Shown piece after piece: positions 2,525 to 54,622 of a stretch of 64,000 nt of DNA. The position numbers and the translations under genes are program-made. Each line of letters begins with the position of its first letter. Within the stretch, counting starts at the first letter, position 1. This DNA is from Octopus vulgaris (lineage: Eukaryota): contig OX597843.1 of assembly GCA_951406725.2 (NCBI GenBank), positions 19,096,001-19,160,000 on the forward strand. Direction: 5' to 3'. The notes under the pieces were generated by a model that was not told the DNA's origin, did not search any database, and worked only from the letters and a program-made list of their open reading frames with translations.

Positions 2525-4362
<1,838 letters not shown>

Positions 4363-6560: not shown

Positions 6561-6588
6561 GCGTGCTATGGGATAATAGTTCCCATCA

Positions 6589-6667
<79 letters not shown>

Positions 6668-6678
6668 CATTATTATTA

Positions 6679-6751
<73 letters not shown>

Positions 6752-6769
6752 CATTATTATTATTATTAT

Positions 6770-6803
6770 TCAGTAGTTATATTTTTATAGCGTGCTTTCA
6801 CAC
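6770..6803 (-). mobile_element. about 30-bp 3' stub of RLE family A inside a (TTA)n tract
   Basis: reverse complement matches the family A terminus tgaaagcacgctataaaa..aactactga (2482-2511). Confidence 0.75.
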
Positions 6804-6853
6804 AATATTATTATTATTATTATTATTAATATTATTATTATTATTATTATTAC

Positions 6854-6892
<39 letters not shown>

Positions 6893-6894
6893 CA

Positions 6895-8304
<1,410 letters not shown>

Positions 8305-8335
8305 GCTATTATTATTATTATTATTATTATTATTA

Positions 8336-8784
8336 GTGAGAGAGCAGTGCATGCCATCAAAGTGACACTGGGGTAAAATATACAAAGCCCAGTATACCCA
8401 TCATGACTACCCGTCTGATAAGGGTACACCAGGCACATGCACCACAACCATATGTGCACGACATGGTAAACTCATAACAAGATAAACAGGATATGACCTT
8501 GCAGGTGGGGCCCAGTTAGAATTTTCCTCTGATCGGGTAACCCATCCCACTCAAAAGGTCCATGATTAAGGGTTGTTTAAGGACGTTGAACGAAACACCC
8601 ATGTTTCCAGAGGTGAATTATTCAAACCCCAAAGAATCCCTCGCAACACATGGCTATGATGCTCCTCCACTACTTCTGCTCGAGATCAGAGATGCACATA
8701 TCGTCAGCCACTAAGGGACATGCTCAACTGGTTAAGGTCAAACAAGATCAGAAGCTATGAGAGCCACTGCCTGGTACTACTGCA
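8336..8784 (-). mobile_element. non-coding interspersed element embedded in (TTA)n, copy 1 (internally deleted)
   Basis: homologous to 24270..24805 with the same two ends; trinucleotide tracts on both sides; strand inferred from the RLE orientation rule. Confidence 0.75.
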
Positions 8785-10673: not shown

Positions 10674-11095
10674 GTAAGTTGGTATACTTTTTTCATACAA
10701 CGTTATGAATATAATATTTCTATATACTTAATGTCTTCTCGTTTCTCTTTCACTCTTTTCACTCTTACTAATTTTCTGTTCCTATCTTTGCCTTATCTTG
10801 TTCTGTATCTGAGGATGAGTTCAACTGAGATTTTATATGTTTTTTTATCAAAACATATTAATAGAAATGTAATATGTATGTTCATATGTATTTGAGTGTC
10901 GGCGTATATATATTTGACTATATAATTCCTATCGATATGTTTTGCCTCCACCTTAGTTATCCATTCGCGTCTTGAATTTTGTTTTTCCTCTTATTTTCTT
11001 ACCGTCTTCTTTTCCTTCCAATTTCTTTTATCCAACTGCAATTTAGTTTATTTATCTAATACAACCTGTATATATGCAAGTCGAACATATAAATA

Positions 11096-11970
11096 CTGGG
11101 TCATCCTATAAATAATGTGGTTTCCAGATGCATGAAATAAAAGTCGCAGTGGGACGGGATAAACTACCTTTATAGACTCCCTATAAAAGCAGATAATAAT
11201 TTTACCACGGATGTATTCTTAGAGCACGTTTTGAAGAGTGCAGTTCTATTTTAAGAGTTATTGTTTCAAAGCTATAATTGTAGTGACAAAGGAACATATT
11301 CGGCATATTTTGCTTTATGACTTCAATAAAGGCAGCAATGCAACGGGAAGTACGAGGAATATTAGTGCAGTTTATGGGGATCGGACAATAAGCGTAAGCC
11401 AGTGTCAACGGTGGTTCCAGAAATTCCAATCATGAAACTACAGCGTAGAAGACGAGCCTCCTCCTAGAAGTTTTATGGAGTGCAAGTGGGACGCCCTGCA
11501 AACCCTAGTGGAATAAGTAGAGAAGCTTGGATTTGATCATTCAACCAGTCACTCAAGTCAGCGCTAGAAGAAAATGACCGTCTTTGGTTTCAATACGAAA
11601 GTTGTTCTTCCATCAGGATATAGCGAGGATGACGTTCCAAAGGCTGGAGCAGTTTGGATGGGAAACCATGATCCACCCAACATAATCGGCGGACTTTAAC
11701 CCATCTGGTTATCATCTATTTTGCAGTCTTCAAAGTAATCTGGACGGAAAAAATATGAATTCTATAGAAGAGGTCAGAACATTACTGGAGGAATATTTTT
11801 AGCCAGGGACAAGTGAATTTTAGAAGAGAGGACTTGCACATCTACCAGCTAGATGGAAAGAGCATATTCCAAAATGGAGGAGAGTATATTCAAGATTTGA
11901 AAAGAACGTCATCTTAATTTCGAAAAAATAAGAAGTATAAAAAACCGGCAATATTAATGGGATGACTCAT
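11096..11970 (+). mobile_element. Tc1/mariner DNA transposon, internally deleted and decayed
   Basis: HTH KEHIRHILLYDFNKGSNA..RNISAVYG..SQCQRWFQKF; imperfect TIRs (CTGGGTCATCCTATAAATAATG / ATATTAATGGGATGACTCAT) flanked by TA. Confidence 0.88.
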
Positions 11971-15574: not shown

Positions 15575-18328
15575 CCCCCTTCCTTCCTCTTTCCCTTATA
15601 TTCTCTTGCCACTTCTCCATTCTTCATCGTCTTATGACATTTTCCTTCCCCACCTCCCAAATTCAGCTCAATTTCTCCTGGTCTTTCGCCTCTTTATTCC
15701 ACATTCTCCCCCTTCCTTCCTCGTTTCCCTTCTTCATATTCTCTTGCCACTTCTATAGTTCTTTATGTTTTATGACATTTTCCTTCCCCACCTCCCAAAT
15801 TCAGCTCAATTTCTCCTGGTCTTTCGCCTCTTTATTCCACATTCTCCCCCTTCCTTCCTCGTTTCCCTTCTTCATATTCTCTTGCCACTTCTATAGTTCT
15901 TTATGTTTTATGACATTTTCCTTCCCCACCTCCCATATTCAGCTCAATTTCTCCTGGTCTTTTGCCTCTTTATTCCACATTCTCCCCCTTCCTTCCTCGT
16001 TTCCCTTCTTCATATTCTCTTGCCACTTCTATAGTTCTTTATGTTTTATGACATTTTCCTTCCCCACCTCCCATATTCAGCTCAATTTCTCCTGGTCTTT
16101 TTCACCTCTTTATTCCACATTCTCCCCCTTCCTTCCTCGTTTCCCTTCTTCATATTCTCTTGCCACTTCTATAGTTCTTTATGTTTTATGACATTTTCCT
16201 TCCCCACCTCCCAAATTCAGCTCAATTTCTCCTGGTCTTTTCACCTCTTTATTCCACATTCTCCCCCTTCCTTCCTCGTTTCCCTTCTTCATATTCTCTT
16301 GCCACTTCTATAGTTCTTTATGTTTTATGACATTTTCCTTCCCCACCTCCCATATTCAGCTCAATTTCTCCTGGTCTTTCACCTCTTTATTCCACATTCT
16401 CCCCCCTTCCTTCCTCGTTTCCCTTCTTCATATTCTCTTGCCACTTCTATAGTTCTTTATGTTTTATGACATTTTCCTTCCCCACCTCCCCATATTCAGC
16501 TCAATTTCTCCTGGTCTTTTACCTCTTTATTCCACATTCTCCCCCCTTCCTTCCTCGTTTCCCTTCTTCATATTCTCTTGCCACTTCTATAGTTCTTTAT
16601 GTTTTATGACATTTTCCTTCCCCACCTCCCATATTCAGCTCAATTTCTCCTGGTCTTTACCTCTTTATTCCACATTCTCCCCCCTTCCTTCCTCCGTTTC
16701 CCTTCTTCATATTCTCTTGCCACTTCTATAGTTCTTTATGTTTTATGACATTTTCCTTCCCCACCTCCCATATTCAGCTCAATTTCTCCTGGTCTTTTAC
16801 CTCTTTATTCCACATTCTCCCCCCTTCCTTCCTCGTTTCCCTTCTTCATATTCTCTTGCCACTTCTATAGTTCTTTATGTTTTATGACATTTTCCTTCCC
16901 CACCTCCCATATTCAGCTCAATTTCTCCTGGTCTTTCACCTCTTTATTCCACATTCTCCCCCTTCCTTCCTCGTTTCCCTTCTTCATATTCTCTTGCCAC
17001 TTCTATAGTTCTTTATGTTTTATGACATTTTCCTTCCCCACCTCCCATATTCAGCTCAATTTCTCCTGGTCTTTCACCTCTTTATTCCACATTCTCCCCC
17101 TTCCTTCCTCGTTTCCCTTCTTCATATTCTCTTGCCACTTCTATAGTTCTTTATGTTTTATGACATTTTCCTTCCCCACCTCCCATATTCAGCTCAATTT
17201 CTCCTGGTCTTTAGCCTCTTTATTCCACATTCTCCCCCCTTCCTTCCTCGTTTCCCTTCTTCATATTCTCTTGCCACTTCTATAGTTCTTTATGTTTTAT
17301 GACATTTTCCTTCCCCACCTCCCATATTCAGCTCAATTTCTCTGGTCTTTCGCCTCTTTATTCCACATTCTCCCCCCTTCCTTCCTCGTTTCCCTTCTTC
17401 ATATTCTCTTGCCACTTCTATAGTTCTTTATGTTTTATGACATTTTCCTTCCCCACCTCCCATATTCAGCTCAATTTCTCCTGGTCTTTCGCCTCTTTAT
17501 TCCACATTCTCCCCCTTCCTTCCTCGTTTCCCTTCTTCATATTCTCTTGCCACTTCTATAGTTCTTTATGTTTTATGACATTTTCCTTCCCCACCTCCCA
17601 AATTCAGCTCAATTTCTCCTGGTTTTTCACCTCTTTATTCCAAATTCTCCACCCTTCCTTCCTCGTTTCCCTTCTTCATATTCTCTTGCCACTTGTATAG
17701 TTCTTTATGTTTTATGACATTTTCTTCTCCACTTCCCATATTCAGCTCAATTTCTCTTGGTCTTTCGCCTCTTTATTCCACATTCTCCCCCCTTCCTTCC
17801 TCGTTTCCCTTCTTCATATTCCCTTGCCACTTCTATAGTTCTTTATGTTTTATGACATTTTCCTTCCCCACCTCCCAAATTCAGCTCAATTTCTCCTGGT
17901 CTTTCACCTCTTTATTCCACATTCTCCCCACTTCCTTCCTCGTTTACATTCTTCATATTCTCTTGCCACTTGTATAGTTCTTTATGATTTATGACATTTT
18001 CCTTCCCTACCTCCCATATTCAGCTCAATTTCTCTTGGTCTTTCGCCTCTTTATTCCACATTCTCCCCCCTTCCTTCCACGTTTCCCTTCTTCATATTCT
18101 CTTGCCACTTCTATAGTTCTTTATGTTTTATGACATTTTCCTTCCCCACCTCCCATATTCAGCTCAATTTCTCCTGGTCTTTCGCCTCTTTATTCCACAT
18201 TCTCCCCCCTTCCTTCCTCGTTTCCCTTCTTCATATTCTCTTGCCACTTGTATAGTTCTTTATGTTTTATGACATTTTCCTTCCCCACCTCCCAAATTCA
18301 GCTCAATTTCTCCTGGTCTTTCACCTCT
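15575..18328. repeat. pyrimidine-rich tandem satellite, 138-139-bp unit, about 20 copies, running into an assembly gap
   Basis: unit tatgacattttccttccccacctccc..ttctatagttcttta repeated head to tail with 1-bp indels. Confidence 0.97.
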
Positions 18329-18428
18329 NNNNNNNNNNNNNNNNNNNNNNNNNNNNNNNNNNNNNNNNNNNNNNNNNNNNNNNNNNNNNNNNNNNNNNNN
18401 NNNNNNNNNNNNNNNNNNNNNNNNNNNN
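18329..18428. other. assembly gap (100 N, true size unknown)
   Basis: run of N. Confidence 1.
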
Positions 18429-20478: not shown

Positions 20479-20529
<51 letters not shown>

Positions 20530-20533
<4 letters not shown>

Positions 20534-21133
20534 TAGTTTCATTTTTATAGCGTTCTTTCACTTCACTACCGAGCGCAGCTCTGTGTGCCTTAGGTATGTG
20601 CTGTGATTTGTTGTGATGCTCTGATGGTTATCGTATGGAAAGTGTTCTGCGTAGGATGTGTGCAGTGCCTAGTAGTGCAATTTTCTGTATGTTATATGTG
20701 TTTGTAAGTCCTGGTGTTTTTGTTATGTATTTGTCTGAATATTTTTTTATCATGCCTAATGCACCTACTATGATAGGAATTGTTTCTGTTTTCAGGTTCC
20801 ACATTCTAGTTACCTCTATTTCCAGGTCTTTGTATTTTGAGAGTTTCTCCATTTCTTTTAGAGACACGTTGTCATCTGCCGGTATTGATACATCAATTAG
20901 AAAGCATTTTTTCTTCATGATCTCTGACAACTATATCTGGTCTGTTGGCCTTAATTTCTCTATCTGTGTGTATCGGCATATCCCAGAGTATGGTTGCTTT
21001 CTCGTTTTCTGTGACCTTTTCTGGTGTGTGCCTATACCATCTTTTTTCTGTTGTTATTCCATAGTGTTGGCATAGCTTCCAATGTATGTAGGTTCCAACT
21101 CTGTCATGTCTGTGAATATATTCCTTCTTAGCC

Positions 21134-21135
<2 letters not shown>
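20530..21135 (-). mobile_element. RLE family A, about 600-bp endonuclease-region copy
   Basis: KKEYIHRHDRVG..RPDIVV..EKLSKY plus the family A 3' UTR; bounded by (TTA)n. Confidence 0.92.
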
Positions 21136-21197
<62 letters not shown>

Positions 21198-21201
<4 letters not shown>

Positions 21202-21797
21202 TAGTTTTATTTTTATAGCGTGCTTGCACTTCACTACCGAGCGCAGTTCTGTGTGCCTTAGGCATGTGCTGTGATTTGTTGTGATGCTCTGATGGTTGTT
21301 GTATGGAAAGTATTCTGCGTAGGATGTGTGCAGTGCCTAGTAGTGCAATTTTCTGTATGTTATATGTGTTTGTAAGTCCTGGTGTTTTTGTTATGTATTT
21401 GTCTGAATATTTTTTTATCATGCCTAATGCGCCTACTATATGAATTGTTTCTGTTTTTAGATTCCACATTCTGGTTACCTCTATTTCCAGGTCTTTGTAT
21501 TTTGAAAGTTTCTCCATTTCTTTTAGAGACACGTTGTCATCTGCCGGTATTGATACATCAATTAGAAAGCATGTTTTTCTTCATGATCTCTGACAACTAT
21601 ATCTGGTCTGTTGGCCTTAATTTTTCTATCTGTGTGTATCGACATATCCCAGAGTATGGTTGCTTTCTCGTTTTCTGTAACCTTTTCTGGTTGTGCCTAT
21701 ACCATCTTTTTCTGTTGTTATTCCATAATGTTGGCATAGCTTCCAATGTATGTAGGTTCCAACTCTGTCATGTCTGTGAATATATTCCTTCTTAGCC

Positions 21798-21799
<2 letters not shown>
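21198..21799 (-). mobile_element. RLE family A, second 600-bp copy with the identical 5' end
   Basis: same boundaries as 20530..21135, with several substitutions and indels. Confidence 0.92.
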
Positions 21800-21854
<55 letters not shown>

Positions 21855-21857
<3 letters not shown>

Positions 21858-22029
21858 TATGTTTGACTTTTGCTTTATGTCTGTACATGTTGGCTCCAAG
21901 TCTCACCCAGGGACCACAAGAGACAACAGGTTGGAAGTTCTGTCCCATATATTTGGGGGTTTTTTTGTGTTGTACTAGTCAATGTCTAATACATAAAAAT
22001 AAAATTTAAAAAAAATAAATAAATAAAAT

Positions 22030-22062
<33 letters not shown>

Positions 22063-24207
22063 TGTTTGTTTTAAACCTTGGGATTACATAGAGAGTATTT
22101 TGCGTAGGATATGAGCAGTTCCCATGAGCACTATCTTTTGAATTTCTGCCATTTTGGGGTTTCCTGGTATCTGAGTTAGGTAGCAATTAGTCCCTTTCGC
22201 TATCATTCCCAGGGCACCTATGACAACAGGTATTGTTTTAGTCTTCCGCTTCCACATTTTACTGATTTCTATTTCAAGATCTTTATATTTGCTCAGTTTT
22301 TGGTAGGTCTTGACAGATACGTTTATATCGATTGGGACAGTCATATCAATGAGGAGGCATGTTGTTTGTCTGAAGTCTTTCAATATGATGTCTGGCCTAT
22401 TTGCATCTATCTTCCTGTCAGTTTGAATGGTGAAGTTCCAGAGGAGTGAGATGTGGTCATTTTGAAGCACTGGAGGTGGATTGTGTTCCCACCAGTTTTT
22501 TTCATGGGGCAAATCCAAGTTTTTGCAAATTACCCAGTGAATATATTGTGCAGCTCTATCATGCCTGTTGAGGTACTCTGTAGGCGCTAGAAGACTGCAT
22601 TTGGAGACAACATGATCAATGGTTTCATTTTGTTGTCGGCATACACGACATTGTTGGGCTACTGCCGTTCTTTAATATGTTGGCCTGGTAGTTTCTTGTT
22701 GGTAGGCATTGATCTTGAGCTGCTATGATAAACCCCTCTGTTTCAGATTTTAAGCCAGAGGCCATTAGCCATTGATGGGTCAGGGCTTTGTCAATATCTG
22801 CATTATTCGCTCTCTTTGGGTATTTGCCATAGAGAGGTTTTTCTTGCCATTTTTTATTCAGAATATCTAAGGCCGCAGTTTTGGCACGGGTTTTCATGCG
22901 CTTAGCTTTTTCTGTGCTTGTTTCTTGTATGTTTATCTCTAATTCCGAAATTGGTTGTATTCGGAATTCACTTAGATATTCCTTTGCCTGTTTTGTGACT
23001 GAGTATGATGCTTTCTTGTTTTCATGTTTTGAGACAAGTTTTAACATCCAGTCCTCAGAGATTTTCAGGTAGGTGTCTAGGCCAATTGTAGCAATCTTCA
23101 TTGTTATTGCAAGTTGTAAAAGACCACGGCCTCCCTCTTTTCTTGGCAGATAGAGTCGTTCTGTATCTGCCTTAGGGTGGTGCATTCTATGCAGTGTCAA
23201 CAGTTTCCTTATTTTTCTGTCGAGCTGACATATTTCAGTAATTGACCAGTTAACAACATTGAAACTGTAAGTCACGACTGGTATGGCTAAAGCATTGATC
23301 GCTTCGATCCTGTTTCTTGCATTCAGCTCTGTCTTGAGTATTGCTCTCACTCTTCGATAGCATTCTCTCCTGAACCTTTCCTTCATCTCTGAATGCCTTA
23401 TTCCGTTCCCTTCAATTACCCCTAGGTACTTGTAGCTCTCCGCTGGGTCTAGTTCTTTTATGACATTCTGCTGGTCAAGGTTAACGTTAGATGTTTCTGT
23501 CAGTTTTCCTTTGATAAATGTAGCTTTTGCACATTTATCGAGGACGAAATGCATTCTGATGTCGTCACTGAATTGTTTGACTATCGCTACTAAGCCCTTG
23601 AGTTGTTGGTCATTTTTTGCAAAAAGCCTTAAATCATCCATGTAAATGAGATGATTTATATTTTTATCAATCATTTTATACCCGTACTGCGCGTCATTGA
23701 GCAGCTTTGAGAGAGGTATTAAGGATAAACAAAAGAGGAGTTGTGACAGTGAGTCACCCTGGAAAATGCCACACGAAATTTTTACATCACCAGCATTTAG
23801 GGATTCATTGTCACTGTTCAGAGTTAGTCTGGTTCTTCATGATCTCATACTTACAGTCAAGAGGTTTCCTGCAGAGTAGGTGCTATCTTATACATTTCCA
23901 GGCATTTCCTAATCCAGCTATGTGGTAGGCTATCAAAAGCTTTTTTATAGTCTATCCAGGCTATTGATAAGTTTTTGTGTCGTTTGTGACAATCTTCTAA
24001 GATCATCTTATTGATGAGTAGTTGGTCTTTACAGCCGTAAGATCCACGTTTACATCCTTTCTGTTCATTAGGGAATATGCTGTTGTCTGTTAAAAAACTA
24101 TAGGTATATTCCGTCAGGACAGATGTTAGCGTTACTATAGGTATATTCCGTCAGGACAAATGTTAGCGTTACTATAGGTATATTCCGTCAGGACAGATGT
24201 TAGCGTT
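21855..24207 (-). mobile_element. RLE family B, longer 5'-truncated copy
   Basis: ORFs 22625..23674 (IYMDDLRLF) and 22084..22518; GIFQGDSLS and WIDYKKAFDS upstream; homologous to 2579..4252. Confidence 0.93.
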
Positions 24208-26828: not shown

Positions 26829-28305
26829 TTTCAGCTCAGAGCTGCGGCCATGCTGATGGATCGCCGTTTTGTGCTACACTGTTCTTACGAAGAACCTCGT
26901 CTAATATGTGGCACTTGGTGAAGAATGGAGTTCGATATAGCTACTCTCATTTGCACCTCTTGCCGTGAGGTAGGTTCATCTGGGACTCTTGACAGGAAGA
27001 TGTCCAGCTTTGATTTAAAAACCGCTACATCTACTTTGTGCAAGTTCCTCAGACTCTTTGTGAGAATATTAAAAAGTTGTGGGCCCTTGAATCCCAGGCT
27101 TTTGCAGAAGCTGGTCCTGAAGCGTGATGGCACTATGCAGTGTCGTCCCGCTCTAGTATTGGTGTAGCTTACAATGCCAAAATTTGGCACAATTCCTTCC
27201 AGGTTCTTCCAAACATATATTGCTGCATACCTCTCCCGTTTTCTCTCCAGGGAGTAGAGTCTTAGCTGTTTCAACCTTTCCCAGTAGCTGAGCTGTTGCA
27301 AAGAGACGATCCTCTTTGTGAATCTTCTCTGGATTGCTTCAAGGTCCGCTGTTAATTTCACACTGGTGGGTGACCATAGCTGTGAGCAGTAATCCATGCG
27401 GCTGAGGACGAATGTCCGCCAGAGGACCAACATCGTTTCCTTATCTCTGGTTCTGAATGTTCTTAGGATCCATCCATCCAGTCGTCTGCACTTTGTCGCA
27501 ATCCTGGTAATGTGCACTTGGAAAGAGGTATCATCACTCATGTCGATACCCAGATCCCTCACAGACTTAGGCTCTGGGATTGAAATTCCCTGTGGACCGG
27601 TGTATCCTGTAAGTTTAATATTCAGTTTTGGATGCTGGTAGCGCAGGGCCTGGAATTTTTCAGCATTAAGCTGCATATTATTATCTTCAGCCCATCTGTA
27701 GATTGAGTCCAATTCCTGCTGCAGGTGTGCAACATCGCTGGGGTTCTGTATTTTCGGCGAGACTTTCGTATCGTCTGCATAGCTTGCCAGAGTGGCTATC
27801 CGGGCATATCTGAGAGGGCCACTATCAAAAGCAGTGGTCCCAAGACAGTGCCCTGTGGAACACCGCTCACTATTTGTGTGTTCATAGAGGTGGCTCCATT
27901 AACCACTACTGCCTGACTCCTATCTTTCAGGAAGTCATTTAACCACACTCCAAGTTTTCCAGCTATGCCGAGATCACGCAGTTTGTGGCATATCATACCA
28001 TGATCCACCTTGTCAAAAGCTTTTGAAAAATCAAGGTAGATTACGTCCACATTTGATTTGTTGAGTAATTGTCTCAACACCCAGTCATAATGTTGTAAGA
28101 GCTGGGTCAGGCAGCTCCTACCTGGTCGAAAACCATGCTGGGTATCACTCAGCAAGTTATTTTCCTCAAGGAATGCGATTAGTTTCTTTCTGACTATCCG
28201 TTCCAGGAATTTGCTGATGTGTGAAGTCAGAGAGATAGGCCTATAGCTTTTGTCATCTGCTCTACTTCCCTTTATGTATTGGGCATATTATTTCTTCCTT
28301 CAGCT
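26829..28305 (-). mobile_element. CR1-clade LINE, 5'-truncated
   Basis: QHGFRPGRSCLTQLL, YLDFSKAFDKVDH, GVPQGTVLGPLL, SYADDTK, LYSLERKRER; flanked by (TA)n. Confidence 0.93.
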
Positions 28306-28552
28306 TGTTATATATATATAACGGAAGTTAATTAGTCCGATGGGTATTTCCAAAGTTAAAACGCTGACGAAAATGCGAGCTTTGGTAATTAACGATTAAC
28401 GGTTTCGTGCCTAGATTTATATTTGTTTTTGTTTTGGTTTTTGTGAATTCTCCCTATATAGATATTAGTTATTAATATTTGAGAGAATAAAATCCAAAAG
28501 ATGGTGTAATTTAAATGTTCATTTTGAATTGGTAAAAGGTGTTTTTTTTAAA

Positions 28553-28607
<55 letters not shown>

Positions 28608-28967
28608 ATATAAGTTAAATTAGAGATAAAACCACTATTAGGCAAATCAAACTGTGAAAAACATAAACCAAAACATAGAAATAAAAATAATTAATATAAT
28701 ATACAAAATATATAATATATATAATATTTTAATTATTTAAATTGAAAGTTAAAAATTTAAGATTATTAATTTACATTTATAAATTTATATATATATATAT
28801 ATTTAATTTTTTTTTTATTAAATATATATATCTATCAAAAAGTATTAAAAATTTAATATAAGATAAATATATATGTATGCATGTATGTATGTATGTATGT
28901 ATGTATGTATGTATGTATGTATGTATGTATGTATGTATGTATGTATGTATGTATGTATGTATGTATG

Positions 28968-29439
28968 TGCAAGCCATTCAAACACAACTCTAATCCGATT
29001 TTCACACATACACACAGAAACTTTTTCTGCATTAATCGAACACTAAAGAACGAAAGCCAAAAATCTCTTATGATAGTATAAATATAATTACTAACATGCG
29101 TGGTATTCGTTGTTTATTTCTCATCATGGCTTAGATACAATTGTAAAACTTTAAAATATGACAGCCAAGATAAGATGGACGGTAAAACTGTACTTATTAT
29201 AGATACTTGAACAGGGATCGGAAAGGCAGTGGCAGAACATCTATCACAAGGAACTAAGGTTATATTAACATACTGTAACTTAACTAAAGCGAACACAGCA
29301 GCCGATGAAATGCTTTCTTCAACTGGTGTTTATTGGAAAATGATCAAATTTTCGTTCTTAATTGTCCGGTTGATGCAGAAAAAGTTTTTTTTTGTGTATG
29401 TGTGAAAATCGGATTAGGGTTGTGTTTGAATGGCTTGCA
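28968..29439. mobile_element. non-autonomous inverted-repeat element (about 88-bp arms) carrying a host gene fragment
   Basis: 28968-29055 is the imperfect reverse complement of 29350-29439; the interior has SDR coding similarity. Confidence 0.7.
29100..29327 (+). pseudogene. retinol dehydrogenase 11-14-like SDR N-terminal fragment with an in-frame stop
   Basis: VVFVVYFSSWLRYNCKTLKYDSQDKMDGKTVLIIDT*TGIGKAVAEHLSQGTKVILTYCNLTKANTAADEMLSSTG aligns by eye to DGKTVIITGANTGIGKETA..LA.RGA.VILACR...KA..AA.EI. Confidence 0.82.
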
Positions 29440-29476
29440 TATACATACATACATACATACATACATACATACATAC

Positions 29477-29880
29477 AGGCACAGGAGTGGATGTGTGGTA
29501 AGTAGCTTGCTAACCAAGAACTTGGTTCCGGGTTCAGTCCCACTGCGTGGCATCTTGGGCAAGTGTCTTCTGCTATAGCCCCGGGCCGACCAATGCCTTG
29601 TGAGTGGATTTGGTAGACGGAAACGGAAAGAAGCCTGTCGTATATATGTATATATATATATATATATGTATGTGTGTTTGTGTGTCTGTGTTTGTCCCCC
29701 TAGCACTGCTTGACAACCGATGCTGGTGTGTTTACGTCCCCGTCACCTAGCGGTTCGGCAAAAAGAGACCGATACAATAAGTACTGGGCTTACAAAGAAT
29801 AAGTCCCGGGGTCGATTTGCTCGACTAAAGGCGGTGCTCCAGCATGGCCACAGTCAAATGACTGAAACAAGCAAAAGAGG
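29477..29880 (+). mobile_element. tRNA-derived cephalopod-type SINE, full length
   Basis: head ggagtgg(c)tgtgtggtaag..ggttcagtccc, internal (TA)/(TG) tract, tail ggcggtgctccagcatggcc..tgactgaaacaa. Confidence 0.88.
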
Positions 29881-30041
29881 AAAAGATAGAGTAAAGAATA
29901 AATTAAAAAATAGCAAGTTCTGGGGTTCGATTCATTCGAAGCACATTTCTTCAAGGAATTGCTCCAGCATTGCCGCAGTCTAATGATTGAAATAAACCCG
30001 GATTCGCCGGATATTTATTTCGGTACTGTAATATAATGGAT

Positions 30042-30463
30042 GGATTTTTTCGGTTTGAACGGCAGTTTTTAAGATAATTTCTAGGTAACAAAAAAATTTT
30101 AAACTTCGTATACTGGTAGAATTTGTTTATAAAACATCTTTTTTCTTGACTTTATTAAGAAAATTCTACAGTTTGTAAGATATTTGTTGTTTTTTTCTTC
30201 AATTTCTGCAATTTCAACCAATCAGTGGCGTCCAGTGAGGTAAAAAAAACATTCTGTGCCGTATGAATATGTCCCTCGTTTAAGAAGCAACCTGGGTATA
30301 TTTACATTTGTGAAGAAAAAAAGATACACTTCCCCCACCCCTAACCCTAACCCTAACCCTGAAATAGATTGAAATGCAATAGATCGATACTAGGGTCAGA
30401 ATTATGGGTGACATTTTCATATGACACCGCTAGAAAAATCTGCCGTTCAAACTGAAAAGATCC
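30042..30463. mobile_element. MITE with about 29-bp TIRs starting GG, an 8-bp TSD and internal (CCCTAA)n; Merlin-like
   Basis: GGATTTTTTCGGTTTGAACGGCAG / CTGCCGTTCAAACTGAAAAGATCC; flanks TAATGGAT and TAATGGTT. Confidence 0.8.
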
Positions 30464-30871
30464 TAATGGTTATAAACCCAAACTCGACCATCAAAGTTTA
30501 AAAAGTTTTTATCGAATAAAAATACAGCAAAACCAAACTTCAACGCAATAACATTTTTATGCAGCGAGTTGCTACATTCTCGACGAACTAAAATCAAAGC
30601 TGCACACGTCGTGCCGCAAACAGAACAGAACTCCGCGCAGCCGCACTGGAAGGTACATAATGGCAATCGAGACGATCAAAATCACGTGATCAAAGCTAAA
30701 CTCAAAATTTGTCTCTTTTTTAAGCTTCACTCGTCATTCTGTGGCCACTCTGGGGCACCGCTTTGAAGAATCGACCTCATTCCTTGTTATTATTATTATT
30801 ATTTTTATTATTATGATTATTATTATTATTATAATTATCACTATTATTATTATAATTATTATTATTATCAA

Positions 30872-30955
<84 letters not shown>

Positions 30956-31325
30956 GGAGAAGAGAATTAATACATTCGAGCTTTGGTGTTGGAGAAGACT
31001 TTTACGGATTCCATGGACAGCGAGACTCACCAATGGAGAAGTTTTTAAGCAGATAAGGCCGAAAATGTCGTTAGAAGCTAGGATCACCAAGCATAGATTG
31101 GCATATTTCGGTCATATTATGCGGAGAAAATCCCTGGAGGAGGACATCATACTCGGAATGGTCAGTGGCAAGAGAGGAAGAGGCCGACCAAGAACCCGCT
31201 GGCTTCACACCATCAAGAGTGATACCGGAATGGACATGGCCAGTCTGAATGAAGCGGCCCAGGAGAGAACTGACTGCAGGACACTGATCCAATGAGTGAC
31301 CGAGAGTCGACTTCGACTGAGCGGA
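30956..31325 (+). mobile_element. RTE (BovB-like) LINE 3' fragment
   Basis: FELWCWRRLLRIPWTAR..LAYFGHIMRR..GKRGRGRPRTRW. Confidence 0.88.
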
Positions 31326-31327
31326 TA

Positions 31328-31560
31328 TCAAATATATATATAAAACTGAGAATGTGTGTCTGTCTGTCGGTCTTCTGTCTGTGTGTTTCCCTAAAACTTG
31401 AGAACTACACAACCAATTTCATTCACATTTTACACATGCCTTACTTAGGGTCCGGGAAGTGTCATCGGCAAAAAGATGTTGAACTTCTTGCCTAGAGCGA
31501 GCCCATAGCAACATCATATCTTCTCCACTATTTCAGTATTACGTGTTAAAAGTGAAACAA
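31328..31560 (+). mobile_element. probable non-autonomous Helitron 5' fragment
   Basis: TC..TATATATAAAA start followed by a (GTCT)n tract, like the start of the element at 60352; no 3' CTAG hairpin found. Confidence 0.45.
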
Positions 31561-32779: not shown

Positions 32780-32852
32780 GTTTTCCAGCAGTCATCGTTA
32801 TAATTACCCTGGCAATTAACTCCACAAACAATTACATCAAAATCGCAGAGGT
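32780..32852 (+). CDS. adhesion/secretin-class GPCR exon, TM4-ECL2
   Basis: ttatcag acceptor and gtaagt donor; (G)FPAVIVIITLAINSTNNYIKIAE(V); phase 2 end joins in frame to CWL of the next exon. Confidence 0.88.
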
Positions 32853-33243
32853 GTAAGTATTTCTCTTTTTCGTTCACCTCATTTTCTCTGCTCTTCACAA
32901 CTAATATTATTGCTAGATATATATTACCCCTTTAGTATTGTAGAATACTAGGTCAGCTAGCATCAAGCCACGACTTTGATTGCTGGTAGTAAACCTACTT
33001 CAATATCATTGTTAATGCTTTTGTTCTAAGACTCATGAATATCAATGATTTCATTTGTGTTTCTCCTCTCTTCAATTTAATAAGACCAAATATCTACTGA
33101 TGAAAGCAACATACAAAAATATAAACAAAACATATATATATATAATCAATGCAAACATGAACAAGCAAGAAAAAACAATAACGCGAGGACGTGGAACAAG
33201 TACTGTTATTGGGTACTCAGGAAAGGAAAGAAAAGAAAGAGAA

Positions 33244-34300: not shown

Positions 34301-34443
34301 CATAATTTGTCGCAAGTATGAGACATTTTTTCGTTTCGTTTTGGATCGAAATCACTCCACATAAATCCTTGTCTGATACTTCATTTTATTGGCTGAACAT
34401 CTGATGAATTTCTTTTCTTCATTGCTTTCTGTTTTCTTTGTAG

Positions 34444-34832
34444 CTGTTGGTTAAACATACCTTCTTTCTTTGCTGCTTTCCTGACTCCCGTTGTGATGGT
34501 CCTCATCTTCAACTTTATCATGTTCTCTCGTGTGATAACACGTCTCATATCAACGCAAAGAAACAAAAGATTTGAACACAAAAGAAGAAAAGTGCGTGTT
34601 TTGGGCCTGGTTGGTTTGATGATTTTGCTTGGATTCACATGGGTCTTTGCATTCTTGGCTGTTAGGGAAGCGACAAAAGTGTTTGAGTATCTTTTTTCTA
34701 TATTCAATACCCTTCAAGGAATGTTTATCTTCCTATTTTATTGTGTGTACAAGAAAGATACACGCGATGTCATCAAAGAGTCCGTGAATAAACGAAAGAG
34801 AGCGAATCCCAGGAGAGTTGTCGCCGGCAGAA
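34444..34832 (+). CDS. adhesion GPCR exon, TM5-TM7 and helix 8
   Basis: ctttgtag acceptor and gtaagt donor; CWLNIPSFFAAFLTPVVMVLIFNFIMF..LLGFTWVFAFL..YLFSIFNTLQGMFIFLFYCV are class B2 motifs. Confidence 0.95.
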
Positions 34833-35151
34833 GTAAGTGCGATTTGTGTTGGTTTCTTTTTTATTCATTGCACCGTGAGAACCATCGCCAATATTGTCGT
34901 GATAGTGATAATCACAAACACCATTTCTAACAACACAGTCACTTTTAGGATAGACATCATCAAAATATCAACACTGCTGTTGTCGTCGCAATCATCGTCG
35001 TCATCATCATCATCATAATCACTACCTTCATCATCATCGTCGGTGTCGTCTTCGTTGTCGACGTCGTCCAGATGGGGGGAACACATACGCCACAGAAACC
35101 GGGAAACCGGACCCATGAGCCTGGCAAGGCTTGAAAAGGGCGACGTTTATC

Positions 35152-36886: not shown

Positions 36887-36994
36887 TCGGGGTGAGTACT
36901 TGATAATTATAAGCACCTGTGTATACCGTTTGGTGGTGTAGGTGGTGGAGTAAATTGATCAAAATAAAAATAAAAACATGAGGCGAAGGATTCA

Positions 36995-37072
36995 GCGGTA
37001 CATATGTTTCGGGCCTTTATTAGACAGATTTATAACAAAGCATAATGTATGTCTGTGGCCTTCTTCAGCCGC
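36995..37072 (-). ncRNA. type I hammerhead ribozyme (left palindrome arm)
   Basis: exact reverse complement of 38621..38698. Confidence 0.8.
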
Positions 37073-38620
37073 GCACAACAGCTTCCACAAGGACATGTGT
37101 TACATCAAAAATTCTTGGTTGGGGATGCAAATCCTCTCATTCCCGTACGACATAATGCGGCAGCAGCATAGAATTGAAGCGTCCATCTCTTTCTTCTCTC
37201 AATGTAGAATGAGGAAACTTGGATGTTGAGGTAATGTAAATAAATAAATACGTATATAGAGGTGAAGATGGAGGGGCGAGAGTTCGGGACGAGGGATAAA
37301 AAATATATATAAAAAATGTACGTATAGAATAATATAAAAATGTACGTATAGAATAATATAAAAATGTAGAGGATAAAGATATAAAGAGTTGTAAGGAGAT
37401 GTAAAGGGGGTATAAAGAAATATAAAGAAATATAAATAAATGTAAAGGCATAAGGTTGTAAAGTAAAAATAGAAATGGAAATAATAGTAAAAGAAGTAAA
37501 AGAACCTGATAAAAACATGATAAAAGTGTAAAAGAATGTAAAGATAAGGGATGTGTAGAGGTCGCGGACCAAGCATGGTGGTCAGGAGATTGATAAAACT
37601 TAGTTGTAGAACTGTCAGTAAATTAACAGTTTCGTCGTAAATCAGAGCTGATGAGAATTTAATCTGGTTCCTTGAATTAAATGGACTTCCAGTACATACA
37701 TATCATCATGGATACATACACCCACATACACGCGTACATATACGTCTCCAAGCCTGTAAGCATACACACGCACTCGCGTGTAAACACGTACATAAACACA
37801 CACGCACCCACACGCACGCGCGCACACACACATACATACAACAGAATATCCGCATATATAGACGGACATTACGCGCGTACACGCTCACATGTATATACGC
37901 GCGCCCCTCACTACATACGCACACGTATATGCCCACGTCTCTTGGAGACGTATATGTACGCGTGTATGTGGGTGTATGTATCCATGATGATATGTATGTA
38001 CTGGAAGTCCATTTAATTCAAGGAACCAGATTAAATTCTCATCAGCTCTGATTTACGACGAAACTGTTAATTTACTGACAGTTCTACAACTAAGTTTTAT
38101 CAATCTCCTGACCACCATGCTTGGTCCGCGACCTCTACACATCCCTTATCTTTACATTCTTTTACACTTTTATCATGTTTTTATCAGGTTCTTTTACTTC
38201 TTTTACTATTATTTCCATTTCTATTTTTACTTTACAACCTTATGCCTTTACATTTATTTATATTTCTTTATATTTCTTTATACCCCCTTTACATCTCCTT
38301 ACAACTCTTTATATCTTTATCCTCTACATTTTTATATTATTCTATACGTACATTTTTATATTATTCTATACGTGCATTTTTTATATATATTTTTTATCCC
38401 TCGTCCCGAACTCTCGCCCCTCCATCTTCACCTCTATATACGTATTTATTTATTTACATTACCTCAACATCCAAGTTTCCTCATTCTACATTGAGAGAAG
38501 AAAGAGATGGACGCTTCAATTCTATGCTGCTGCCGCATTATGTCGTACGGGAATGAGAGGATTTGCATCCCCAACCAAGAATTTTTGATGTAACACATGT
38601 CCTTGTGGAAGCTGTTGTGC

Positions 38621-38698
38621 GCGGCTGAAGAAGGCCACAGACATACATTATGCTTTGTTATAAATCTGTCTAATAAAGGCCCGAAACATATGTACCGC
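38621..38698 (+). ncRNA. type I hammerhead ribozyme (right palindrome arm)
   Basis: GCGG-CTGAAGA-A-GGCC..GGCC-C-GAAAC-ATAT-GTA-CCGC; stem I GCGG/CCGC, palindromic stem III ACATATGT, predicted cleavage after A38694. Confidence 0.8.
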
Positions 38699-38913
38699 TG
38701 AATCCTTCGCCTCATGTTTTTATTTTTACTTTGATCAATTTATATATATATATAAATATATATATTAACTATATATATATATTCATATATATATATGTAA
38801 CTATATATATACATACATATATATATATGTAACTATATATATATATACATATATATATATGTAAATATATATATACATATATATATATGTAAATATATAT
38901 ATATATACATATA

Positions 38914-41954: not shown

Positions 41955-42023
<69 letters not shown>

Positions 42024-42113
42024 GTATATCTATATATATATATATATATATGAATGTATGTATATCTATATATATACATATACATACATACATACATACA
42101 TACATACATACAT

Positions 42114-42157
<44 letters not shown>

Positions 42158-46437: not shown

Positions 46438-47139
46438 TATGTATATATATATGTATATATATACATATTTATACATATATATTTATGTGTGTATATATAT
46501 ATGTGTATGTATATATATATATATATATATATATACATAAATATATATATATATGTATGTATATATATATACATATATATATACATATATATATATATAC
46601 ATAAATATATATATATATACATTAATATATATATACATATATGTATATTTTGTTATGTATATGGGTGATGAGTATATGTGTGAGTGTGTGTGTGTGCGCG
46701 CGCGCGCACGTGTAGTATGAGTGTGTCTTTGTAAGTGTGCATGTATGTATGTATAACTATATGTGTATGCGTGTCTGTGTCTGTTCCCAACCACCGCTTC
46801 ATAAACGGCGTTGGTGTATTTACGTCGCATGACGTAGTAATTCGACAAAATACACTGATGTAATAATCACAAGGCCTAGCAAAAAGAAAGGAAGGTTGGA
46901 TTTGGGCGAATAAAATTTCTTTGACACGGTGCCCCAGCATGAGCGCAGTAATATAACTGAAATAAATAAATATGTACTTTTTAAAAACATAAGATTGGAT
47001 GAAAATAATTTCCTGCAAGATTTTAAGCAGGGGACAGGAACTTTACGGAAAGATATTAAAGAAAACGATTATAGTCAATATTTTATTATTTTTGTAAAAC
47101 TTGAATTGTTTCTGAAAGACTATTTAAAGACAAACATTT

Positions 47140-48290
47140 TACAAGACAAACAGAAAAGCATTGAGGCACCAAAAATAATCGATAGATTTCGTCCCCTTTG
47201 TCCGGTTCTCACCAGAGAAGCAGAGGTCGATGAATCGTGTGCGGACGTACACAATGTTATATCCAATATTGTTGTCATTCAAGGGGGAATAGTAACATAT
47301 TCCCGCCATTGTATGACAATATCTTGTGTGACAAGGGATGGTGGGAGAAATGATGTTCATTGCCCATCATCTGTCACCGATATCACCAGAATCGGACGAG
47401 ACACAGTTCTAGCCAGTCTTCCATTTAAGAAAACGATTCTTTTTATCAATCCCACAAATTTTAAAATTAAAAAAACTTCAATTAGGTTTTTTTCCTGGTA
47501 TCATATTTACGACATTCTACATTTATAGGTGTAGACATGTTTGATAAGACCATATACCTTATTGATTGGGATGATAATACAATTAGAAAACAATACATAG
47601 TCAAAGAGGTACCAGCAGATATTGCTGTAGGACCACTGAGTAAAATTTTAATAGCATTTTCCAACATTAGCAAAGTATCCTGTTATAATTTGGATGGCCA
47701 TCAGTTATTTGAAGTAGACATCCATTCTCTGTACCTAGCAACCAACATCACCGTGTACCAAAACAATTTTTATGTCCTCCAGGGACATATTATTTATAGA
47801 ATTTCAGGTACAGGTGCTGTTTCAAAGAGGGAAATTGGCAGGAAATGCCGGTATATTTCCGTTGGAAGAAATACAATTTTCTTGACCGATTATTTCGGGG
47901 TTCCTCATGCTATTGGAACAAATGAAGACTTTTGGCCCCGTCTGTCACACTGCCCATGTTTCAACAACTCTATTTATATTGAGGATTGCTATAATATGGC
48001 ACAAATTCTACCTCTGTCAACATCTTCTATATTAATAATCGACAGGAATAAGAAAGCTATAATATTCAATGATACTGGAGAAATAATTAGCAAAAATAAT
48101 TTAACTTTTGTCTCCCATCCTTTTCTCATTTGCAGATTAAACTCAAACACATTTCTAGTCTTTTATCGCGAAATGAAAGGACTTCAGTGTATCACCTGTC
48201 CTGAACTAACCATGTAATTATCCGTCACTAAATCCAGAGGAAATTTTGCGAAGTTGAATGGAGGAAATTCTTTCAAAGTTTCACTTCTCT
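47140..48290 (+). pseudogene. beta-propeller (NHL/TolB-like) coding remnant with a frameshift and stops
   Basis: two long non-repetitive ORFs in different frames (46929..47528 and 47537..48217) with PxDIAV, VSCYNLDG and IFLTDY strand patterns; joined by a frameshift near the T run at about 47490; boundaries approximate. Confidence 0.6.
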
Positions 48291-48334: not shown

Positions 48335-50130
48335 ATTGACAATAAATACCCATAAAGTGTTGTATAAATTTAATTGACTTCTTCCGTTTGATATAAACGT
48401 AGCACTAGGCATTTCCCAACACGTTATGGACACAATGCTCGCAGGTTCGGATTTCGATATAGCTTACCTTGACGATATACTCATGAAAATGTGAATCTCG
48501 GAGTCAGCATACTGGGCATGTTAAAAAGGTCTTCGAAAAGATAAAAGATTATGGGTCTAAGCTCAGCGAGGGAAAGTGTGAATCATTTATGCCAAGAATA
48601 TAATATCTAGGGCAGATTATCGATAAAAATAGACGTAGACCAGACTCGTGAAAGCCGAGTGCAATATAGAATATGCCTCACCCGACAAACATTACAACGT
48701 TGCAAGCATTGGGGTGGGGCTCGCAAATTACTACCAGGTACACATAGCGTATATGCATGATTTGAGAGCACCGCTGAATAACTTGTTAAGTAGAACTGGT
48801 CGGACAAATGCCAAAATGATTTTAAGCAAGTTAAAAGCATCTTAACGTCAGAATTGTTTTTATCACGTTTTGACCCGAATTTAGAAATGGTAGTGGCATC
48901 AAATGCTAGTAAAATTTGGTATTTGAGCTGTAATTTTACACAAATATGATGATGGTATCGTGAAAGCTGTAGCTCATGCTTTGCGTTCCTTATTTCCGGC
49001 TGAGAAAAGTTAGAGTCAAATAGAGAAAGAAACATGAGCCATGAAATTTGCGGTAAAGAAGTTCCATGAATTTATACATGGAAGACGATTCCGTCTGCAG
49101 ACAGACCACTGCCAATTATTGTCAATCTATGGATCAAAAAAGAGTATTCCCACACATACAGCCCACAGACTGCAGCAGTGGGGAACGATCCTGCTGAATT
49201 CAAGATGGAGTATTTTCCATCTAAAAAACTGGGACATGCAGATGGTTTGTCGAGGCCAAAAGACACACTGATAGCGGTGTTAAGAGCCGAGAATGAAATA
49301 AAACAAAGTATATTTTGTAAGGTTGTGCGTGAATTGCCTGTCACATTGAAAGAAATAAGAATTAAAATAGAGACGGACAAGTTAATGGTGAAAATGACAA
49401 AATAGTGAAATCAGAAGAAACAAGAAAAAGTGTGGCTGGACGTAACACAGTTTCGAAACTGTATTCGATATGTGATAAGGTGCTTATGTATTGCACAAAG
49501 GGCCGTAATGTCTGCCTGAATACAAAATCAAATGTTAAAGGATTTCCACACTGGATATCCAAGAATTTCTAGGATGAAAACGCTTATGAGGAGCTATGTT
49601 TACGGCCGAAAATGTATCAAGATATTGAGAAGTTGGTAAAATCCTGCAAAGGGTGTGCTCTTGCAGCAAAATCACCAGCCATATAATTTCAACCTTGGCC
49701 CAAGACCGATATTCCATAGACCAGGTTGCACAGATTCCGCAGGACCGTTAAACCGATCATATTATCTAATAGTGGTTGATAACTTTACAAAATGGTCAGA
49801 AATGTTTAAATGTAGAGAAACGACCTCCACGGTAAAGTGGAATTTTTACACGAACGTTTTGCTAAGTCAGGTGTTCCGTATATCCGTCGTCTCCGATAAC
49901 GGTACAGAATTTGCGGCGAATGAATATAAGAATTTTTGCAAGATGTACTCAATTGAACATATGACTATTCCTCCGTATCATCCAAGGTCGATCGGACAAG
50001 CTGAACGCTTTATGGGAACTTTCGAAAGGGTACTAAAGAAATCCAGAAATGAGTTGGTGGATGATGTAGCATTGACACAATTCCTGAGAGTTTGTCGTGT
50101 AATATCTTTTCAGGCAAGTAGTCTGCGGAA
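48335..50130 (+). mobile_element. Gypsy LTR retrotransposon pol remnant (RT-RNase H-integrase)
   Basis: AYLDDIL; SQIEKE..FAVKKFHEFIHGRRFRLQTDH; integrase DSAGP, VVSDNGTEF, PYHPRSIGQAERF; many stops. Confidence 0.92.
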
Positions 50131-50673
50131 CTGATGTATGTCGATAGAGAGCAATTAAAGGAAGCAATTGGCAAATAAACAGCACGAATTTGTTCTAGAT
50201 GGAAAGGACGTTGGATGAAACGTGTGGCTTGAGAAGGGGACAACTCTTCGCAGGAAATGAAATACCGGATTGATACGCATTGTAGTTTTCTTGTTATAGT
50301 CCGGCTACTTCTTGATCATAACTTGTTCAGTAAGTTAGGGAGAAAGAAAGAGACGAGAGGAGTAGCAAGAGAGACGCGGAATGATAAGGGTAGAAATATG
50401 ATGAGGGGCAGAGAGAAAAGGAGAAAGAGAAAAAGTCGAATGATAGAGAGAGAGAGAGGAGGGGGAGAGAGAGAGGGGAGGGGGAGAGAATATGATAATA
50501 CAAAAAGAGTTAAGAAAGAAATTCCGCCGAGTTGACTTTTCCTTTCATCCTTTCGGAATCGATAAATTAAGTACCAGTGGCGTACTGGGGTCGATCTAAT
50601 CGACTGGCCCCCTTCCCCAAAATTTTGAGCCTTGTGCCTAGGATAGAAAACTATAATATATAGGATGGCGCAA

Positions 50674-54505: not shown

Positions 54506-54563
<58 letters not shown>

Positions 54564-54622
54564 GTATGTATATATCTATACATACATATACATACATGCA
54601 TACATATATAGATACATATATG

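What the first reader, a model, noticed from the sequence alone, without database searches (positions are those of the whole stretch)
28880..29475. Inverted-repeat element carrying a captured retinol-dehydrogenase fragment (Pack-TIR-like)
Seen: about 88-bp imperfect inverted arms (28968-29055 and 29350-29439), extended outward by mutually inverted (TATG)n and (CATA)n tracts, enclose about 290 bp that translate to a membrane anchor plus a decayed Rossmann motif (DGKTVLIIDT*TGIGKAVAEHL). The fragment is uninterrupted by introns. Known: Pack-MULE and Pack-TIR elements capture host gene pieces. Inference: gene capture by a microsatellite-associated TIR element, possibly through an mRNA template. 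It is invisible in the ORF track because of the stop codon.
Basis: partly seen in the sequence, partly recalled or inferred. Interest (0 to 1): 0.75.

Follow-up and report, generated by a model that had tools for sequence, protein, structure and literature searches.

The report
Octopus gene fragment inside inverted repeat
In an octopus genome, a dead, decayed copy of the first 280 bases of a retinol-dehydrogenase gene sits between two mirror-image 88-base arms, most likely an old mini-transposon that swallowed a piece of a host gene, a known process not previously found reported for cephalopods.

Summary
The structure is real. Arms 28968-29055 and 29350-29439 are inverted (79 of 89 columns identical; score 127 against a shuffle maximum of 35). 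The interior is a decayed copy of codons 1-93 of an octopus RDH11/14-like gene (63% identical to O. bimaculoides XP_052834074.1, E 1e-23), with three stops, a one-codon deletion and neutral G/C-to-A/T decay (about 0.16 substitutions per site, roughly 30-65 My). Homology stops at the inner edge of the right arm. No other RDH piece lies in the window.

The mRNA-template idea is unsupported: the only junction that several octopus gene models share (residue 111/112) lies beyond the fragment, so it is probably part of one genomic exon. The mirror (TATG)n/(CATA)n tracts need not be part of the element; the window has such compound tracts without an insert. The arms are too alike for the age of the cargo (8 mismatches against about 26 expected; outer half 1 of 45), as expected of maintained TIRs or hairpin conversion.

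Arm copy number, a TSD and a transposase partner could not be shown: no octopus genome was searchable. Best reading: Pack-TIR-like relic (0.5). A local fold-back or a Penelope-type inversion stays open.

The parts
28610..28867 (+). AT-rich dispersed repeat ending in a TA tract; left neighbour, not part of the element
   Evidence: Aligns over its whole length with a second copy at 54664-54930 (221 of 292 columns), both ending in (TA)n
28868..28967 (.). (TATG)n tract, 25 units; probably target-site microsatellite or slippage product of the TA/TG junction
   Evidence: similar tracts elsewhere in the window
28968..29055 (+). Left arm (88 nt), putative TIR, begins TGCAAGCC
   Evidence: outer 45 nt differ from the right arm at 1 site
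29056..29069 (+). 14-nt spacer between arm and ATG: RDH 5' UTR or remnant of the element's own interior (undecided)
   Evidence: no parent DNA available to compare
29070..29349 (+). Decayed copy of codons 1 to about 93-94 of an octopus RDH11/14-like gene: N-terminal hydrophobic anchor and first Rossmann strand-helix-strand-helix; stops at 29079, 29085, 29208; one codon deleted near 29241
   Evidence: 63% identity over 93 aa to XP_052834074.1; score peaks at codon 92 and falls from codon 95-96
29350..29439 (-). Right arm (90 nt), putative TIR, ends GGCTTGCA
29440..29477 (.). TATA then (CATA)n, 9 units; mirror of the left tract, cut short by the SINE-like repeat
29478..29888 (+). Multi-copy SINE-like repeat abutting the right tract; hides the original right flank
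   Evidence: Matches at 33793, 34130, 36264, 36476, 43841, 45478, 55406, 55663, 56882 and others; the label SINE is recalled, not from a call

Best explanation
A dead Pack-TIR-like relic of 472 bp (28968-29439). A small non-autonomous DNA transposon (MITE-like, about 88-bp terminal inverted repeats, ends TG...CA) sits in a TA-derived microsatellite, and its interior has been replaced by about 295 bp copied from the 5' end of one of the tandem octopus RDH11/14-like genes. Shown: the symmetry, the identity and limits of the cargo, its neutral decay, and that the arms are younger-looking than the cargo. Inferred: (1) the arms are TIRs of a dispersed family; (2) capture was by template switching or gap repair at a break in the hairpin-prone element, from genomic DNA of the first coding exon; (3) the outer 45 bp stayed alike because the loaded element or its family kept transposing after capture, or through arm-to-arm conversion, or the donor was already an old pseudogene; (4) the mirror microsatellites come from a self-complementary (TATG)n(TA)m(CATA)n target or from slippage at the TA/TG and CA/TA junctions. 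It makes no protein.
For: Arms 79/89 identical, far above shuffles. Cargo begins at the parent's Met1 and its homology ends within 8 nt of the right arm's inner edge; the arm does not continue the RDH frame (anchored score 0 against 45.8 for a positive control). tblastn of 7 RDH proteins finds only this stretch in the window. 32 of 93 codons differ from all six Octopus sequences, each by one base; 16 of 47 columns invariant in Octopus and Argonauta are changed; 18 of 62 parental G/C sites against 4 of 71 A/T sites. Arms: 8 mismatches against 26 expected at the cargo's rates (P 3e-5); outer 45 nt 1 against 14 (P 1e-5); inner 42 nt 7 against 12 (P 0.08); outer against inner Fisher P 0.014-0.026. 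Cargo size matches Pack-TIRs (median 224 bp) and most are single-copy gap-filling products (PMC8277862 sections 7, 8 and passages). O. vulgaris has 963 TIR families, 6.8% of the genome (PMC13282606 supplement). Mirror microsatellites from slippage at element ends are described for pineapple Ac-mMITEs (PMC8449440 section 6).
Against: No second copy of the arm: none in the window (0 of 14 comparisons with seven neighbouring repeat ends reached P below 0.19); a protein search with one arm reading frame found no candidate; 4 exact look-ups of arm-spanning left ORFs and 3 of right ORFs were absent. These negatives are weak but nothing positive offsets them. No TSD. The only transposase trace in the window, a mariner HTH at 11235-11432, has unrelated ends. 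The termini could not be assigned to a superfamily. No element-interior sequence can be shown between arm and cargo.
Confidence: 0.5

Rival explanations
1. Local fold-back. An old truncated RDH duplicate carried its own upstream sequence (the left arm); a later template switch copied that flank in reverse onto the 3' break, as far as the microsatellite. No transposon is involved and the arms are single-copy.
For: Arms single-copy in the window; left arm lies only 14 nt from the ATG; arms younger than the cargo's decay; the RDH cluster sheds orphan first exons (P0003, P0042); no TSD.
Against: A single duplication followed by neutral decay does not predict 1 of 45 mismatches outside and 7 of 42 plus a gap inside. 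The inverted copy stops in the microsatellite and does not run on into the AT-rich left neighbour. No other RDH sequence nearby.
Confidence: 0.22
2. Penelope-type retro-event. A chimeric or in-trans RDH transcript was inserted by a Penelope-like element, whose insertions favour (TA)n and are often flanked by an inverted, 5'-truncated copy; the arms are that terminus and its inverted copy.
For: PLEs form inverted repeats flanking the unit, favour microsatellites and can retrotranspose host genes in trans (PMC8557442 passages). They cover 6.83% of O. vulgaris. An 802-bp, 99.8% identical inverted repeat in (TA)n with a hammerhead-core motif in each arm lies 7.5 kb away. The cargo starts just before the ATG, as a transcript 5' end might.
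Against: No hammerhead-core motif in the arms and no similarity to the neighbouring PLE-like arm. The inverted copy would have to end by chance exactly at the RDH junction. The cargo lacks the 3' end that retrocopies usually keep (own knowledge) and shows no A-to-G excess (3 W-to-S against 20 S-to-W changes; weak).
Confidence: 0.14
3. Two separate, oppositely oriented ends of a microsatellite-bearing Helitron/HINE-type repeat happen to flank, or captured, the RDH piece.
For: Microsatellite followed by a CCGATTTT-like word recalls invertebrate Helitron 5' ends (recalled resemblance); Helitron-like elements are in the window (31326; 60350-62024); HINE/DINE-1 carry microsatellites and were mis-annotated as MITEs (PMC4067079 passages).
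Against: HINE subTIRs are 12-15 bp with a 3' stem-loop, not 88-bp symmetric arms. No similarity to the two Helitron-like ends in the window. None of the six CTAG[TA] words found at 28000-31500 lies within 500 bp of the arms. Both arms stop at the same inner position.
Confidence: 0.09
4. Spliced mRNA was the template of capture by a TIR element.
For: One gene model (P0042) joins R64 directly to residue 112, which could be skipping of an exon 65-111; the fragment reads through that point.
Against: Four other comparisons put the junction at 111/112, beyond the fragment: isoforms P0038 and P0039 are identical to 111 and differ after, P0003 turns to unrelated sequence after 111, P0047 joins at 112. 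The Val65 codon itself supplies a GT (AAG|GTT in the fragment), as a cryptic donor would. Tan et al. excluded intronless copies of multi-exon genes from Pack-TIRs.
Confidence: 0.08

Closest known systems
Animal Pack-TIRs (Tan et al. 2021, PMC8277862)
   Same: Short host sequence (about 295 bp; their median 224 bp) between two inverted ends; exonic cargo; apparently single-copy locally; fits their gap-filling model.
   Different: Their cases have ends matching an annotated TE consensus, cargo at least 90% identical to a unique parent, and often a parent within 15 kb. Here the ends are unassigned, the cargo is old (about 16% diverged) and no parent lies within about 29 kb left or 34 kb right. 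The words octopus and mollusc do not occur in their main text; their supplements were not read.
Plant Pack-MULEs
   Same: Long imperfect TIRs directly abutting an exon fragment of about 300 bp (size).
   Different: No 9-11 bp TSD, no MULE-type assignment; TIR 88 bp. Tan et al. found no Pack-MULE in their 100 reference genomes.
Microsatellite-targeting MITEs: pineapple Ac-mMITE, guayule/rice SaTar, Micron (PMC8449440, PMC5907723)
   Same: TIR element of 400-550 bp embedded in TA-derived microsatellite, no visible TSD, mirror-image microsatellites at the two ends, chained to other repeats through microsatellite linkers.
   Different: Those are high-copy plant Mutator derivatives, and several rice families are stated to be non-Pack; copy number and superfamily are unknown here.
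Octopus RDH11/RDH14-like genes (XP_014783143.1, XP_014783145.1, XP_052834074.1; XP_029652826.2, XP_029653020.1, XP_029653115.1)
   Same: Codons 1-93 at 57-63% identity.
   Different: Fragment lacks residues 95-334, including the catalytic half; three stops; glycine-rich motif broken.
Penelope-like element inverted insertions (PMC8557442)
   Same: Inverted repeats flanking a unit in a TA microsatellite.
   Different: No hammerhead core, no RT or GIY-YIG remnant, equal inner ends of the arms.

Membership tests
Pack-TIR (Tan et al. 2021) | Internal non-TE sequence of 100-5000 bp between inverted ends | tested here: met
   294 nt, RDH-derived
Pack-TIR (Tan et al. 2021) | Both flanks belong to the termini of one recognised TIR TE family | not testable with these tools
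   No octopus genome or repeat library searchable; window, GTDB and protein searches negative
Pack-TIR (Tan et al. 2021) | Identifiable parental host locus elsewhere, not flanked by the TE | tested here: inconclusive
   Parent gene family identified by protein; which paralogue, and its flanking DNA, not obtainable
Pack-TIR (Tan et al. 2021) | Cargo is not an intron-less retrocopy | tested here: inconclusive
   Fragment stops before the shared 111/112 junction; one model leaves a junction at 64/65 possible
Pack-TIR (Tan et al. 2021) | Young: at least 90% nucleotide identity to the parent (their search cut-off) | tested here: not met
   At least 14.5% of non-synonymous sites changed against all available paralogues; an operational cut-off, not a mechanistic feature
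MITE / TIR DNA transposon | Terminal inverted repeats, under 600 bp, no coding capacity | tested here: met
   472 bp, 88/90-nt arms, only a broken host ORF
MITE / TIR DNA transposon | Target-site duplication | tested here: inconclusive
   Flanks are TA-derived microsatellite and a SINE-like repeat; only low-complexity shared words; a TA duplication would need one change on the left
MITE / TIR DNA transposon | High copy number and an autonomous partner with the same ends | not testable with these tools
   One mariner fragment in the window has unrelated ends
Pack-MULE | 9-11 bp TSD and MULE-type TIR | tested here: inconclusive
   No such duplication seen, but the right flank is overwritten
Helitron / HINE (DINE-1-like) | 12-15 bp subTIRs, 3' stem-loop or CTRR end, asymmetric ends | tested here: not met
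   Symmetric 88-bp arms; no CTAG[TA] end near them; no similarity to local Helitron-like ends
Penelope-like element structure | Pseudo-LTR with hammerhead core, or RT/GIY-YIG remnant | tested here: not met
   Motif scan and Pfam/Rfam find none at the locus; Naiads lack hammerheads, so this does not exclude all PLEs
SDR, RDH11/14-like (cargo origin) | Homology to the N-terminal anchor and Rossmann motif | tested here: met
   E 1.2e-23, 63-66% identity
SDR, RDH11/14-like (functional gene) | Open frame, intact glycine motif, catalytic half | tested here: not met
   Three stops, ends at residue 94, no further exon in the window

The most novel reading that the evidence does not exclude
This is one copy of a multi-copy, microsatellite-targeting Pack-TIR family in octopus that kept transposing for tens of millions of years after capturing the RDH 5' exon (hence fresh outer arms around an old cargo), the first cephalopod counterpart of plant SaTar/Pack-MULE elements; its hairpin transcripts could feed small-RNA or A-to-I editing pathways and act on the tandem RDH cluster.
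Probability: 0.12. Interest if true: 0.6.

Novelty: new member of a known kind. Interest (0 to 1): 0.3.

Why it matters
If confirmed it extends TIR-mediated gene-fragment capture to cephalopods, for which the searches run here listed no report, and gives a rare old example in which arms and cargo keep different clocks, a handle on whether loaded elements go on moving. Multi-copy Pack-TIRs were only 4 of 281 in Tan et al.. As it stands it is a dead pseudogene fragment with no sign of function, and the process is known from 55 animal species, so the importance is modest.

Tried and rejected
Arm copy number: blastn in the window, shuffled-control alignments to seven neighbouring repeat ends, an exact 23-nt scan of GTDB prokaryote contigs as a contamination long shot (0 matches), one protein search with one of four open arm frames among 40-130 aa proteins (no candidate), and exact look-ups of 10 window ORFs (0 of 10): all negative, all weak. 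The word-index protein search with the stop-containing fragment found nothing; the exhaustive search succeeded. Idea that the inner arm is decayed RDH coding sequence: rejected for the right arm (anchored score 0; unanchored 54 of 300 shuffles as good); the left arm's 5 of 300 unanchored is one of four tests and is not taken as support. Rfam on 28000-31000: 8 sub-threshold microsatellite-driven matches only. Pfam on 86, 94, 92 and 113 window ORFs (low-complexity and short ORFs were filtered out first): no transposase with related ends. The species and chromosome of the window, and so whether the parent cluster is in cis, were not determined. No paper held all of octopus, retinol dehydrogenase, expansion, tandem (0 hits). 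The viral and metagenome contig collections stayed unchecked.

Full report
Observation. Positions 28969-29055 and the reverse complement of 29350-29438 align with 79 identities in 89 columns (8 substitutions, one 2-nt gap), scoring 127 against a maximum of 35 in 1000 dinucleotide shuffles; with the terminal base the arms are 28968-29055 and 29350-29439. A (TATG)n tract of 25 units lies to the left and TATA plus nine (CATA) units to the right. The 294-nt interior reads, from an ATG at 29070, as a hydrophobic stretch and a broken Rossmann motif, with three stops rather than one.

The cargo. Pfam gave adh_short at only E 0.011 and the PDB search gave SDRs, best E 2e-6. The exhaustive search returned 30 proteins at E up to 0.001, one far ahead of the rest: P0003, E 1.2e-23, which is XP_052834074.1 of Octopus bimaculoides. 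It aligns from its Met1 to Val93 at 63% identity with one gap. A search with its first 111 residues gave 10 proteins at E up to 1e-20, among them RDH11- and RDH14-like proteins of O. bimaculoides, O. sinensis and Argonauta. Three O. bimaculoides records share a longest-contig length of 10,083,081 and three O. sinensis records 17,062,404, from which I infer a tandem cluster. The window is therefore taken to be octopod DNA; the species was not determined. tblastn with 7 of these proteins finds only 29070-29345/29360 in the window.

It is dead and old. Of 93 aligned codons, 32 differ from every one of six Octopus sequences, each by a single base; 16 of 47 columns invariant across those and Argonauta are changed; 18 of 62 parental G/C sites changed against 4 of 71 A/T sites. 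That is neutral AT-biased decay, JC distance 0.16 (95% range 0.11-0.23), or 30-64 My at the 0.0036 per My rate used by Bonar et al.. The estimate rests on protein-inferred parental bases and would shrink if a closer donor exists in the source species.

Breakpoints. A back-translation profile of five paralogues scores upward to codon 92 (29340-29342), is flat to codon 95 and then falls; the right arm begins at 29350. The arm is not a continuation of the gene (anchored score 0 against 45.8 for a control). On the left, 14 nt separate arm and ATG; their origin is unknown.

Introns. No parent DNA was available, so I used gene-model junctions. Isoforms P0038 and P0039 are identical to residue 111 and differ after it; P0003 turns to unrelated sequence after 111; P0047 and P0042 join at 112. 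The fragment ends about 17 codons short of this junction. Only P0042 suggests a donor inside the fragment, after R64, where the next Val codon supplies a GT, the pattern of a cryptic donor. So lack of introns is expected of a genomic copy of the first coding exon; an mRNA template is possible but has no positive support.

The arms. They have no other copy in the window and resemble none of seven neighbouring repeat ends, including a mariner fragment, two Helitron-like ends and a MITE-like element. Their divergence is uneven: 1 mismatch in the outer 45 nt, 7 plus a gap in the inner 42 (Fisher P 0.014-0.026). At the cargo's own G/C and A/T rates 26 mismatches are expected and 8 are seen (P 3e-5); the deficit lies in the outer half (1 against 14), while the inner half is compatible with the cargo's age (7 against 12, P 0.08). 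This is what maintained TIRs would look like, but arm-to-arm conversion in the hairpin, or capture from an older pseudogene, would also give it.

The microsatellites. Insertion into a plain (TATG)n tract would leave direct, not mirror, flanks. But compound tracts running (TATG)n, TA-rich middle, (CATA)n occur without any insert at 42009-42114 and 54549-54610, and a TG...CA-ended element in (TA)n creates TATG and CATA junction units that can expand; the same logic was given for (GA)n and (TC)n at the two ends of pineapple Ac-mMITEs (PMC8449440 section 6). The left neighbour is a repeat whose second copy at 54664-54930 also ends in (TA)n; the right neighbour is a multi-copy SINE-like repeat. The locus is thus a chain of repeats linked by microsatellite, as described for SaTar arrays (PMC5907723 passages). 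No TSD can be read.

Mechanism. Most likely a MITE-like TIR element in a TA-type microsatellite had its interior replaced by a genomic RDH first-exon piece through gap repair or template switching, the route Tan et al. propose for most single-copy animal Pack-TIRs. The steps from 'inverted arms' to 'TIRs of a family' and the order of events are inferred. Rivals are a local fold-back of an RDH pseudogene's own flank (0.22), a Penelope-type inverted insertion (0.14; such a structure lies nearby), opposed Helitron-type ends (0.09) and mRNA-templated capture (0.08). These figures are my judgement.

Comparison and novelty. It works like a Pack-TIR but cannot be filed as one: the defining match to a known TIR family was untestable, and it is too old for Tan et al.'s 90% cut-off. 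Six literature searches listed no cephalopod Pack-TIR; the library lacks most subscription papers. Papers seen: PMC8277862 abstract, sections 7, 8, 14 and passages, not its supplements, which list species and may bear on mollusc coverage; PMC13282606 parts 1-2 of 3 and its supplement; PMC8449440 passages and section 6; PMC5907723, PMC4067079 and PMC8557442 passages only.

Verdict. A real, well-delimited gene-fragment capture inside an inverted repeat, probably a new instance of a known kind, non-functional as a gene, with its decisive test one genome BLAST away. Interest 0.3.

Noticed in passing
window 36951-38742: An 802-bp inverted repeat, 800 of 802 identical, around a 188-nt spacer and flanked by (TA)n on both sides; each arm holds a hammerhead-core motif (37068 minus, 38625 plus). 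Looks like a very recent Penelope-like inverted insertion, or an assembly fold-back; Rfam found no hammerhead there.
   Followed up: partly
window 34397-34834 (+) and 32780-32853 (+): Secretin/adhesion-type GPCR coding segment (7tm_2, E 3e-15, profile 148-250) and a likely preceding transmembrane exon. No earlier exons were found by Pfam, so the finding may lie in an intron of this gene or upstream of a gene fragment.
   Followed up: partly
window 46914-48217 (+): Two overlapping ORFs (204 and 243 aa) with no Pfam hit; the second resembles molluscan NHL-repeat clusters by features (score 0.94, low recognition value).
   Followed up: partly
window 11095-11950: Decayed mariner element; Mos1-type HTH at 11235-11432, E 8e-21.
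   Followed up: partly
window 60350-62024: Helitron-like element: TC/TA-rich start and a GC hairpin followed by CTAGT at 62020; another Helitron-like start at about 31326. Labels are from recalled anatomy.
   Followed up: partly
window 30039-30465: MITE-like element with about 25-bp imperfect inverted ends and an internal (CCCTAA)n telomere-like run at 30340-30360.
   Followed up: no
window 15575-18328: Tandem array of about 20 copies of a 139-bp unit, 96% matches, ending at a 100-N assembly gap (18329-18428).
   Followed up: no
window 62688-62981 (-): ORF with a Death domain, E 2e-9.
   Followed up: no
window 48794-50131 (+): Decayed LTR-retrotransposon pieces (RNase H-like and integrase); many LINE reverse-transcriptase fragments at 695-8400, 20500-24150, 26888-28287, 57745-60134.
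   Followed up: no
P0003, P0042, P0047 (Octopus database proteins): Several octopus RDH gene models are chimeras of a first or second exon with unrelated sequence, suggesting orphan exon copies within a tandem RDH cluster.
   Followed up: partly
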